DNA of 63,451 bases, the filler included, from Sluysia triapertura (Eukaryota), in the NCBI GenBank assembly GCA_046118255.1. It is 5 parts of 5 records of this genome, joined end to end, with 100 filler letters (N's around TTAATTAATTAA, not from the genome) between each part and the next. Parts side by side here need not be neighbours in the genome. Positions count along the whole stretch, not along the records: positions 24,332 to 36,130 come from JBJNIA010169813.1; 4 more parts are not named here. One strand, written 5' to 3'. The notes beneath the pieces were generated by a model. It was given only the letters and a program-made list of their open reading frames with translations, was not told the DNA's origin and ran no database searches. Of the stretch, positions 25,531-27,405 are shown piece by piece; positions within the stretch are counted from its first letter, which is position 1, and each line of letters starts with the position of its first letter. Position numbers and translations under genes: made by a program.

Positions 25531-26841
25531 TTAATTATTACAGCTCTTATATGGATCAACTTTTGATTCTTTAAGAAAAGAAATTATAAATTCAGGATAA
25601 ATATAGTTGGAATTATCATCAAAAGACATATACGGTATTAATCCATAACTTGTAAAATTATTTCTATTATTACTTATATTAAAGTTCATACATTTTGTTA
25701 GGAGTAATACTAACTTTACTTTTTCGATAGAACGAAATAAAACTTTATAAGAATTTAAGAAAAAAATTTTATTTAACACAAAAGTAAATCTGATTTTACG
25801 TTCTAACTTTTCTATTACCATCATGAAATTGGTTACTGCACCATATTGTAGTTCGTGGATTTCCATCTTATATTTATCTAAAATATAAAATATGATATAT
25901 CTGTCAATAAATCTTACATGTTGACTCCACCAATTATTAGAAGAATCTTTGAATCGAGTACTTGTTAAAAGCTTTGACAACCGACATTAATCTTTTCGGC
26001 ATAAATTTGTGTAAAGTACCATCAAATGACATGAATTGTACATTAATTATTTGGAGATCAAATGAATCATTGAGAAAACAAAAATCGATCAATTCCGATA
26101 GAGATCATGAATACAGTTACATGTTTTTTGTACTAAATGAACATCAATGATTATTTTGTAATCTTGGATACTACATAGTATTCGGCGAAGATCTTCGTAC
26201 ATGGGATCAGTGAATTCTGCATATGATAATACTAAGATAACTTGAGATATAACTCGTTGGGTTAGAGAAATCATTTGTGACGGTAATAAATAAAGCTCTT
26301 GTAAATGATGTTTTAATTTGGATTGGCTATAAACTAAATAAGCTTGGACAATTGAATTACTATGTACATAATTCAATGATAAATATAAAGTATTGAGACA
26401 TATTTGTAAATCTTCATGTCGACTAAGTGAATTCTTTAAAAGGTAATCAGAATTAACAGGACTACGAGTACGAGTATTCTTTAGGTTCCAAAATTCATTA
26501 AAAATCAATATTTTTATTCGACACGTCAAATTTAATGGTTCATAAACTCGCGTTGCGATGATTGAAATCAATTCAAAGGATTGCAGCTTTCGATGACTAA
26601 CGATTATTCCTATGAATTCTGTTTGAATGTGAGCCAAATACGTAGCATTATAATGTTGATTATGACAATTAATAAAAACACGTTTAACAGACTTTATTGG
26701 TGTAGTTCGATCTTCGAGTAAACTTATCGATAATTGACAATTTTCAAATTTTATGGTTACGCTGTTTATGTTATCATAAGATGGAATTTCGTCAGATTCA
26801 ACTACGAGAGCATATCCAATTAATCTAGGAGAAAGGATCAT
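25531..26841 (-). pseudogene. Best-preserved member of the intronless orphan ORF family (~435 codons, two apparent frameshifts)
   Basis: A 250-aa ORF from ATG 26841 and a 149-aa ORF (25980-25531) are bridged by a third open frame (SELIDFCFLNDSFDLQIINVQFMSFDGTLHKFMPKRLMS, ~26098-25982). This is the longest ORF in the window. No recognisable domain. Confidence 0.65.
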
Positions 26842-26971
26842 GATTTATAATTATTATTTAATAATTTTTCTAAGTCACTTCTGTTGATTTTTTTGTTGGT
26901 ACAATGAGTTATAATTCGTAAATAAATAATTGTAAAAATAGAACCCTCAATTAGGCAGTCACTCCTCATTG

Positions 26972-27160
26972 ATCATCCAATCAGGGCTTCAAAAAAGAAA
27001 ATTCTATAATATTGGTCCTGATTGGATGATGTTTAAAAGCAGCTTTTAATTAATAGGAATACACATCTGGTTGTAACATTTGGTTATTAACCATCATCAG
27101 TATTGACACTTCTCATCAAAATCTTCATTATTGTGTCAATACTGATGAAGGCAGCAACTA
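26972..27160 (-). promoter_or_regulatory. Inverted-repeat pair upstream of the orphan ORF (module copy 2)
   Basis: Perfect 14-bp IR ATCATCCAATCAGG (26972-26985) / CCTGATTGGATGAT (27017-27030). IR-B has a perfect 16-bp core TCATCAGTATTGACAC (27094-27109) / GTGTCAATACTGATGA (27133-27148), extending imperfectly to 27081-27160. Confidence 0.85.
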
Positions 27161-27363
27161 TTATAAAGTTTTATAAAAATTAAATTAATTAAAATTGATA
27201 ATAATAATAACAATAACAATATTGTTATTATTATTAAGAAAGTTAAAGAAAAATCTCATAAACTTTCTTTTATATATTGAACAAGATTTTACTTTCTTTC
27301 TATATCCTTCTTGACGTATAAAAATAAAAAAATGAAATAAGAGTTACTGACATTGTATGAAAG

Positions 27364-27405
27364 AGCAACGATAACGGGGTACACGATGCTCGAGTTATCG
27401 TTGCT
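27364..27405. repeat. Perfect 12-bp inverted repeat with an 18-nt GC-rich spacer
   Basis: AGCAACGATAAC (27364-27375) / GTTATCGTTGCT (27394-27405). Confidence 0.85.

What the first reader, a model, noticed from the sequence alone, without database searches (positions are those of the whole stretch)
25531..27405. Dispersed module of a covarying hairpin, an inverted CCAAT pair and an intronless orphan ORF (copy 2; copy 1 at 11383-13064)
Seen in the sequence: two loci 14 kb apart, in opposite orientation, share one order. It runs ~240 bp of loosely similar AT-rich leader, an ~80-nt inverted repeat (IR-B), an inverted CCAATCAG..CTGATTGG pair, then an intronless ORF region about 75-130 nt later. 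IR-B aligns as TGGTTGCTACCGTCACCAACGATGACAGC-loop-GCTGTCACCGTTGATGACGGTTGGTAGCCA versus TAGTTGCTGCCTTCATCAGTATTGACAC-loop-GTGTCAATACTGATGATGGTTAATAACCA. The changes occur in both arms together (AACG/CGTT to AGTA/TACT; CAG/CTG to CAC/GTG) while the loops have diverged. The CCAAT repeat also covaries (GC-CCAAT..ATTGG-GC versus AT-CCAAT..ATTGG-AT). Inference: symmetry, not sequence, is being maintained. That fits an unclassified mobile gene cassette or endogenous virus segment whose hairpin is a replication origin or recombination site, or a lineage-specific gene family with a co-travelling hairpin RNA. Residual mismatches are split between G-T and A-C on each strand, so a DNA hairpin is as likely as an RNA one. 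I do not recognise the element.
Basis: partly seen in the sequence, partly recalled or inferred. Interest (0 to 1): 0.85.

Follow-up and report, generated by a model that had tools for sequence, protein, structure and literature searches.

The report
Hairpin-array orphan gene family, flatworm
Two broken, intronless genes with no known relatives in a likely flatworm genome each sit behind a related row of three or four hairpin-forming inverted repeats; one belongs to a many-copy family, and the repeats likely serve as a promoter plus a predicted microRNA-type hairpin rather than as the origin of a new mobile element.

Summary
Six inverted repeats stand out in the 63-kb window (0-1 in each of 8 shuffles), all at these two loci. 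IR-B and the CCAAT pair of copy 1 find their best match at copy 2, in the same order. Covariation is modest: 4 of 28 pairs, 3 of them adjacent. Template switching between the arms can do that in one event, so it does not prove selection on pairing. The host is likely a flatworm. Contigs of one run cover copy 2 at 10-34 times unique depth with many variants, so it has many relatives. Both reading frames are coding-like, broken, unrelated to each other and without homologues in any search. No mobilising enzyme, terminal repeat or target-site duplication was found. Best reading (0.4): an amplified orphan gene unit whose paired CCAAT repeats act as promoter and whose IR-B is a microRNA-type hairpin. 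A mobile or viral cassette remains open (about 0.2). No genome or RNA data were available.

The parts
11501..11554 (+). Copy 1, IR-A: AT-rich inverted repeat in the leader
   Evidence: 18 pairs, loop 16; one of 5 such in the window
11624..11702 (+). Copy 1, IR-B: long hairpin of microRNA-precursor size
   Evidence: best inverted repeat of the window; -44.4 kcal/mol, z -7.6; 31 pairs, 34-nt arm, loop 13
11739..11800 (+).
   Evidence: 12 perfect pairs; arm related to IR-C, shuffle p 0.002; CCAAT to ATTGG 43 bp
11837..11887 (+). Copy 1, IR-C: inverted CCAATCAG pair
   Evidence: 13 perfect pairs, loop 25; CCAAT to ATTGG 42 bp
11963..13064 (+). Copy 1, broken intronless orphan reading frame in three pieces (11963-12424, 12415-12639, 12633-13064) with in-frame tandem repeats of 108 and 129 bp
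   Evidence: the two long pieces exceed the longest frame in 2,000 shuffles each and have GC1 above GC2 and GC3
25531..26841 (-). Copy 2, broken intronless orphan reading frame: 250 codons from the ATG, a 55-codon open stretch in another frame (25940-26104), then 25531-25986 in the first frame
   Evidence: 251 codons against a maximum of 137 in 2,000 shuffles, GC by codon position 0.40/0.29/0.21; depth 270-449 in the bins 25532-26742
26972..27030 (-). Copy 2, IR-C: inverted CCAATCAG pair
   Evidence: 14 perfect pairs; CCAAT to ATTGG 44 bp; 131 nt before the ATG
27080..27158 (-). Copy 2, IR-B hairpin
   Evidence: second-best inverted repeat; z -5.1; aligned to copy 1 in A1
27198..27237 (-). Copy 2, IR-A: AT-rich inverted repeat in the leader
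   Evidence: 17 pairs, loop 4
27364..27405 (.). 12-bp inverted repeat, likely near the end of the adjoining high-copy repeat rather than part of the module
   Evidence: depth 14,334 at 27414; no third copy of its arm above chance
27335..28200 (.). Unclassified very high-copy repeat adjoining the leader of copy 2 (left edge estimated from bin depth)
   Evidence: summed depth 8,400-35,500
24840..25400 (.). Unclassified high-copy repeat behind the 3' end of copy 2, with a ~310-bp internal period; a relative lies at 6752-7141
   Evidence: summed depth 4,000-16,000 and joints going back 310

Best explanation
Each locus is a broken, intronless orphan gene behind a related array of three or four inverted repeats, copy 2 belongs to a many-copy family, and the unit likely spread by DNA-level duplication with its paired CCAAT repeats likely serving as promoter and IR-B predicted to be cut as a microRNA-type hairpin. 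Shown: the repeats and their homology between the loci, the coding-like and broken frames, and the many relatives of copy 2. Inferred: (1) the unit was amplified in a repeat-rich flatworm genome, perhaps carried by the adjoining high-copy repeats; (2) the CCAAT/ATTGG pairs, 42-44 bp apart and 130-200 nt before the first ATG, are promoter sites for a CCAAT-type or dimeric factor; (3) IR-B is transcribed and processed by Drosha and Dicer; (4) the double-arm changes arose largely by template switching or arm-to-arm conversion during replication, while selection kept the arm sequence and the asymmetric lower stem; (5) the two ORFs either diverged beyond recognition or were exchanged behind a shared upstream module, and both window copies are decaying.
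For: Many relatives of copy 2: summed contig depth 231-449 over 25532-27088, against 13.4 for a 1,578-nt flank contig with no difference and 15-46 in the flank bins 28646-29510. Ten contigs differ from the window at 26444 and 8 at 26716, and two 3-letter insertions lie inside the frame (ratio 10-34). Coding origin. Decay: stops and frame switches; 5 of 7 listed differences inside intact stretches are at codon positions 1-2. Promoter: position and spacing; CCAAT boxes are enriched in planarian tissue-specific promoters (PMC10558129, passages) and lie at -60/-100 (PMC11802806, passages). Hairpin: copy-1 IR-B has a 34-nt arm, a 57-61-nt predicted precursor and CNNC at +16 to +18, matching the 60-nt mean and CNNC motif of MirGeneDB (PMC11701709, passages and section 9 part 2). 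Flatworm novel microRNAs are lineage-specific (PMC3840308, passages). Block-wise double changes and a possibly inverted loop are described products of template switching (PMC5453318, PMC8794818), also in promoters (PMC13100816, abstract).
Against: No expression data at all. The predicted seeds differ between the copies. Copy 2's lower stem is weak (CNNC at +20/+21 in the script's register; +18 counted by hand in the copy-1 register). Basal UG is absent in both, and so is apical UGUG (read by eye). G.U and A.C give no strand preference. All 6 paired CCAAT sites have a pyrimidine just upstream, against the NF-Y site RRCCAATSR (PMC11802806), so they are poor NF-Y sites. The two ORFs show no homology, which a simple duplication does not predict. 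Summed contig depth is no copy number and could include episomal DNA.
Confidence: 0.4

Rival explanations
1. The same amplified gene unit, but all inverted repeats are DNA features only: promoter palindromes and by-products of template switching in a region prone to it, with no RNA product from IR-B.
For: No strand preference. AT-only IR-A and short-armed IR-C are not microRNA-like. The half-site spacing of 42-44 bp recurs. The loop may be inverted. Inverted-repeat expansion in promoters is frequent in yeast (PMC13100816, abstract).
Against: The asymmetric lower stem (shared G.T pair and bulge) and about 68% arm identity persist while leader and spacers are near chance. Homogenisation alone would erase the asymmetry.
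Confidence: 0.25
2. One reading: an unclassified mobile gene cassette or endogenous or episomal virus segment, in which the hairpin array is a replication origin or recombination site and different ORFs ride behind a common region, as in multipartite single-stranded DNA viruses (recalled).
For: Shared hairpin module with unrelated ORFs. Intronless orphan ORFs. Many variants. A possible loop flip recalls hairpin flip-flop. Planarians carry the virus-like elements PEVE and PIVE (PMC3198968, section 8).
Against: No Rep, NS1, helicase, recombinase, polymerase or capsid match. No termini or target-site duplication found. Codon-position GC resembles host exons. Loops differ in length and share no nick-site motif by eye. 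The IR-B pattern is absent from viral and metagenome contigs.
Confidence: 0.2
3. Cargo or accessory ORF of a known transposon class (Helentron/HINE, Pack-MULE or Phantom, or a giant Burro-type LTR element), the high-copy flanks being the element's ends.
For: High-copy repeats adjoin both ends of copy 2. The 12-bp repeat 18 nt apart resembles a DINE-1 5' subTIR plus IR (PMC4067079, passages). A FLYWCH fragment and a partial FPGS-like gene lie between the loci. Pack-MULEs are mostly 1-2 kb and Burro has accessory ORFs (PMC6431247, passages).
Against: The two flanking repeats are not alike. No distal subTIR, no TIR, no TSD, no gag, pol or Rep/helicase piece.
Confidence: 0.12

Closest known systems
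Lineage-specific (novel) microRNA hairpins of flatworms; MirGeneDB-type pri-miRNA (PMC11701709, PMC3840308)
   Same: IR-B size, about 60-nt predicted precursor, imperfect lower stem, CNNC in copy 1, several hairpins about 100 nt apart
   Different: No Rfam family; seeds differ between copies; neighbours IR-A and IR-C do not fit; travels with an orphan ORF; processing untested
Inverted repeats created and kept by template switching (PMC5453318, PMC8794818, PMC13100816)
   Same: Adjacent multi-base compensatory changes, near-perfect arms next to the loop, possible spacer inversion, location in a likely promoter
   Different: A mutation process, not an element; it does not explain the conserved arm sequence or the array of 3-4 repeats
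NF-Y/CCAAT promoters (PMC11802806; planarian data PMC10558129)
   Same: CCAATCAG core, several boxes, position 130-200 nt before the ATG
   Different: Pyrimidine at -1 in 6 of 6 paired sites; boxes embedded in 12-14-bp perfect inverted repeats
PEVE / PIVE planarian virus-like elements (seen only as described in PMC3198968)
   Same: Flatworm host, repeated copies, inverted repeats, few ORFs
   Different: No Rep, NS1 or helicase similarity, no terminal inverted repeats
Helentron-associated HINE/DINE-1 and Pack-MULE cargo elements (PMC4067079, PMC6431247, PMC6446971)
   Same: 1-2 kb unit, hairpins, microsatellite and tandem repeat nearby, high-copy flanks
   Different: No matching subTIR, TIR or 8-11-bp TSD found

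Membership tests
Canonical animal microRNA gene | About 60-nt precursor with ~22-nt arms and ~19 pairs, on a lower stem | tested here: met
   Copy-1 IR-B: 31 pairs, 57-61-nt precursor. Copy 2 has a weaker lower stem (27 pairs in the predicted fold).
Canonical animal microRNA gene | Processing motifs (basal UG, apical UGUG, CNNC, CmR) | tested here: inconclusive
   CNNC at +16 to +18 in copy 1, +20/+21 in copy 2 by script; UG absent; UGUG absent and a CmR-like step with a wobble in copy 1 (by hand)
Canonical animal microRNA gene | Mature and star reads with uniform 5' ends and 2-nt overhangs | not testable with these tools
   no RNA holder listed
Known microRNA or other Rfam family | Match at gathering score | tested here: not met
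   (best E 0.044, far below gathering)
NF-Y promoter | RRCCAATSR site | tested here: not met
   purine at -1 in 0 of 6 paired sites; site from PMC11802806
NF-Y promoter | Box 60-100 nt before a transcription start | not testable with these tools
   no start-site data; distance to ATG is compatible
PEVE/PIVE or other ssDNA virus-like element | Rep/NS1 or helicase gene | tested here: not met
PEVE/PIVE or other ssDNA virus-like element | Terminal inverted repeats or free episomal form | tested here: inconclusive
   no TIR between the unit's ends; episomes not testable
Helentron/HINE (DINE-1-like) | 5' subTIR with nearby IR, matching 3' subTIR and 3' stem-loop | tested here: not met
   27364-27405 fits the 5' part, but no third arm copy above chance at up to 2 mismatches; the element could be truncated
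Pack-MULE / Phantom | Long TIRs and 8-11-bp TSD | tested here: not met
   (only one AT-rich 8-mer); true ends are uncertain
Processed retrogene | Poly(A) tail after the signal, with TSD | tested here: not met
   AATAAA present but no A-tail after either stop
Penelope-like element / retrozyme | Hammerhead core with stem II and GAAA (motif recalled) | tested here: not met
   motif scan found none at either locus

The most novel reading that the evidence does not exclude
An animal gene-cassette system: a common hairpin-array region acts as single-stranded origin or recombination site, flips its loop as it replicates, and carries interchangeable unrelated orphan genes through a flatworm genome, mobilised in trans by an enzyme encoded elsewhere.
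Probability: 0.12. Interest if true: 0.85.

Novelty: new variant of a known kind. Interest (0 to 1): 0.45.

Why it matters
On the best reading it is a case of a hairpin RNA and promoter outlasting, or swapping, the protein gene they travel with. A family with tens of copies would give a natural series to test whether template switching or selection keeps hairpin arms matched, and how new microRNAs arise in flatworms. If the copies prove to have sharp ends or free circles, it would be an unclassified animal mobile element with exchangeable cargo, which would matter far more. With two broken copies and no RNA data the claim stays modest.

Tried and rejected
A two-sequence model found only the two training loci and their opposite strands in the window (4 of 30 rows below E 0.1). 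Protein searches were empty. The 250-aa piece: Pfam, 5.8-billion set, 0 of 219 candidates, 1.84-billion representatives, 0, ESM Atlas, viral and metagenome contigs. The C-terminal piece among longer proteins: 0 of 115. The copy-1 143-aa piece: Atlas hits under 0.8, one PHROG of unknown function at E 2e-5 with no passing stretch (not trusted). PDB sequences gave only E 0.45 or worse. AlphaFold single-sequence models had mean pLDDT 33 and 45, and the Foldseek search on the second was meaningless. My by-eye ideas of a ubiquitin-like or LRR fold, and of N-terminal homology between the two ORFs (p 0.70), got no support. No RNA holder was listed; this says nothing on expression. Descent of IR-B and IR-C from one unit was not significant (1 of 11 arm comparisons at p 0.03). 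Reading the two loci as diverged ends of one 16-kb element was considered and left unsupported: about 65% identity, host-like exons between them. The bacterial promoter scan was irrelevant. Five look-ups in earlier scan findings gave nothing on this locus. Ten paper searches showed no description of this module; the library lacks most subscription journals, Repbase and miRBase tables, and no supplements were read. The original PEVE paper is not held.

Full report
Setting. The window is a eukaryotic scaffold of about 24% G+C with four gaps; no whole genome is held. A split mitochondrial phenylalanyl-tRNA synthetase gene lies at 54-62 kb. Its longest exon is at most 75% identical to database proteins. 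In a 31-row, one-exon tree it groups with two parasitic flatworms and an unnamed protein at weak support (75/37), and these three are also the best hits for its second exon. The host is therefore likely a flatworm; a free-living triclad is my guess from the base composition, not a result.

The inverted repeats are real. A scan weighted for G+C finds six repeats at score 22 or more in the window, all at the two loci, against 0-1 in each of 8 block shuffles. IR-B gives the three lowest G+C-corrected folding windows of 2,499. In module order, copy 1 has IR-A (11501-11554), IR-B (11624-11702), an extra CCAAT repeat (11739-11800) and IR-C (11837-11887). Copy 2, on the minus strand, has IR-A (27198-27237), IR-B (27080-27158) and IR-C (26972-27030). 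Centres lie 92-135 bp apart. All three CCAAT/ATTGG pairs are 42-44 bp apart.

The two modules are homologous. IR-B and IR-C of copy 1 find their best window match at copy 2. Arm polarity is kept, 5' with 5' and 3' with 3', with a shared G.T pair and bulge in the lower stem. The AT-rich leader is only weakly alike: 20 of 1,046 positions score as well.

Covariation is real but thin. Of 28 pairs, 16 are invariant, 4 change on both sides, 3 change on one side and still pair, and 5 break in one copy; 29 of 500 shuffles reach this. Independent placement of the changes gives P 0.013 for 6 double-sided positions. Three of the four compensatory changes are adjacent and may be one event. The loops align better when one is inverted (15 against 10 identities). 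An 8-nt match at the loop edge occurs in 13 of 8,994 random 23-mers, but shuffle tests give p 0.09-0.12 against 0.05-0.10 for the same orientation, so this is a lead only. Template switching in replication is described to perfect inverted repeats, to make multi-base compensatory changes and to invert spacers (PMC5453318, passages; PMC8794818, abstract and passages; PMC13100816, abstract). The covariation therefore does not by itself show selection on pairing. The conserved arm sequence and lower-stem asymmetry, against near-chance leader similarity, argue that something beyond homogenisation acts on IR-B (inference).

The reading frames are coding-like, broken and orphan. Four long pieces exceed the longest frame in 2,000 shuffles each, and their G+C is highest at codon position 1, as in two of three host exons. 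The copy-1 tandem repeats have periods of 108 and 129 bp, multiples of three. Copy 2 reads as 250 codons, a 55-codon stretch in another frame and a further piece in the first frame. Copy 1 is in three pieces. None of 9 comparisons between the two loci is significant. No homologue was found in any search, and structure models were uninformative.

Copy 2 has many relatives. One public run holds 0.42 of the words of 25400-27500; it may be the source sample. Its contigs were laid on 24840-30000 only, so copy 1 was not tested. A 1,578-nt contig matches the flank without a difference at depth 13.4. Over 25532-27088 the summed depth is 231-449, 10-34 times the unique level. Ten contigs carry another letter at 26444 and 8 at 26716, and two 3-letter insertions fall inside the frame. 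The tool warns that summed depth is no copy number, so I read this as 'many, probably tens'. Both ends adjoin repeats of far higher depth (bins up to 16,000 and 35,500), which are not alike. The 12-bp repeat at 27364-27405 lies within or at the edge of the right one. Two randomly dispersed copies would rarely fall within 14 kb (0.06-2.8% for 30-300 copies in 0.3-1.5 Gb). That hints at local clustering, but the pair was noticed because it co-occurs.

No sign of a mobilising system. I scanned 158 stop-to-stop pieces against Pfam (10, 93 and 55; a hand-picked part of the 243 listed, plus a few others). At curated cut-offs they gave only FLYWCH, a histidine phosphatase and IQ motifs. No terminal inverted repeat joins the unit's ends, no direct repeat of 9 or more bases flanks copy 2, no poly(A) tail follows either stop, and no hammerhead core lies at either locus (motif recalled). 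The IR-B pattern matches only the two loci in the window and nothing in viral or metagenome contigs. These are negative results on one window with uncertain ends.

How it most likely works. The CCAAT pairs sit 131 nt (copy 2) and 196 nt (copy 1) before the first ATG, where a TATA-less promoter would lie. CCAAT boxes are enriched in planarian tissue-specific promoters (PMC10558129, passages). All six paired sites have a pyrimidine at -1, against RRCCAATSR (PMC11802806, passages), so they are weak NF-Y sites or bind another factor. IR-B of copy 1 has the geometry of a primary microRNA: 31 pairs, a 34-nt arm, a 57-61-nt precursor and CNNC at +16 to +18 (criteria from PMC11701709, passages and section 9 part 2). 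Copy 2 fits less well, UG and UGUG motifs are absent, the predicted seeds differ, and no Rfam family matches. Novel flatworm microRNAs are lineage-specific (PMC3840308, passages), so a blank is expected. I commit to an amplified orphan gene unit with a CCAAT-pair promoter and a microRNA-type IR-B, symmetry renewed by template switching (0.4). Rivals: DNA-only repeats (0.25), a mobile or viral cassette (0.2), cargo of a known transposon class (0.12).

Comparison and novelty. It works like a hairpin cluster plus promoter amplified with a gene. It is not shown to be a member of any microRNA family, of PEVE/PIVE (PMC3198968, passages and section 8; original paper not held), of HINE/DINE-1 (PMC4067079, passages) or of Pack-MULE, Phantom or Burro (PMC6431247, PMC6446971, passages). 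PMC12065363 (passages) was read and not used. Ten paper searches found no description of the module, within the library's limits; no supplements, Repbase or miRBase tables were seen, and these could already hold it. The unexplained part is a conserved hairpin array in front of two unrelated orphan frames. Verdict: real, partly as described, new variant of a known kind, interest 0.45. A cassette system with exchangeable cargo is not excluded (0.12; interest 0.85 if true).

Noticed in passing
window 14020-14570 (+): Two exons with folylpolyglutamate-synthase-like motifs (best PDB hit FPGS, E 0.3) and a GT-AG intron; no 5' exons were found by motif scans upstream. Possibly a partial or captured gene copy.
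   Followed up: partly
window 21351-21740 (+): Isolated FLYWCH zinc-finger fragment (Pfam E 2e-6), perhaps a Mutator/Phantom remnant.
   Followed up: no
window 52641-53526 (-): Histidine-phosphatase (MINPP1-like by my recall) coding pieces just upstream of, and opposite to, the first found exon of the mitochondrial PheRS gene.
   Followed up: no
window 54096-62264 (+): Mitochondrial phenylalanyl-tRNA synthetase gene with introns of about 4.3 and 2.5 kb, used to place the host.
   Followed up: yes
window 45995-47619: Decayed pieces resembling an R2/NeSL-type retroelement (cysteine motif, by eye); no Pfam match.
   Followed up: no
window 7137-7543: About 400-bp element with terminal inverted repeats, MITE-like; a relative near 44972-45202.
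   Followed up: no
window 8158-8229 (-) and 45406-45471: tRNA-like match at the Rfam threshold with an 89% copy elsewhere, perhaps a SINE head.
   Followed up: no
window 42847-43243 (-): IQ calmodulin-binding motifs in two exons of a host gene.
   Followed up: no
window 11283-11382, 24232-24331, 36131-36230, 47771-47870: All four gaps have the form 44 N, a 12-base AT linker, 44 N: an assembly spacer, not biology. Copy 1 starts right at one, so its upstream end is unseen.
   Followed up: yes
window 51787-51996 (-): Fragment resembling an IS630/Tc1-type transposase end (by eye); no Pfam match.
   Followed up: no
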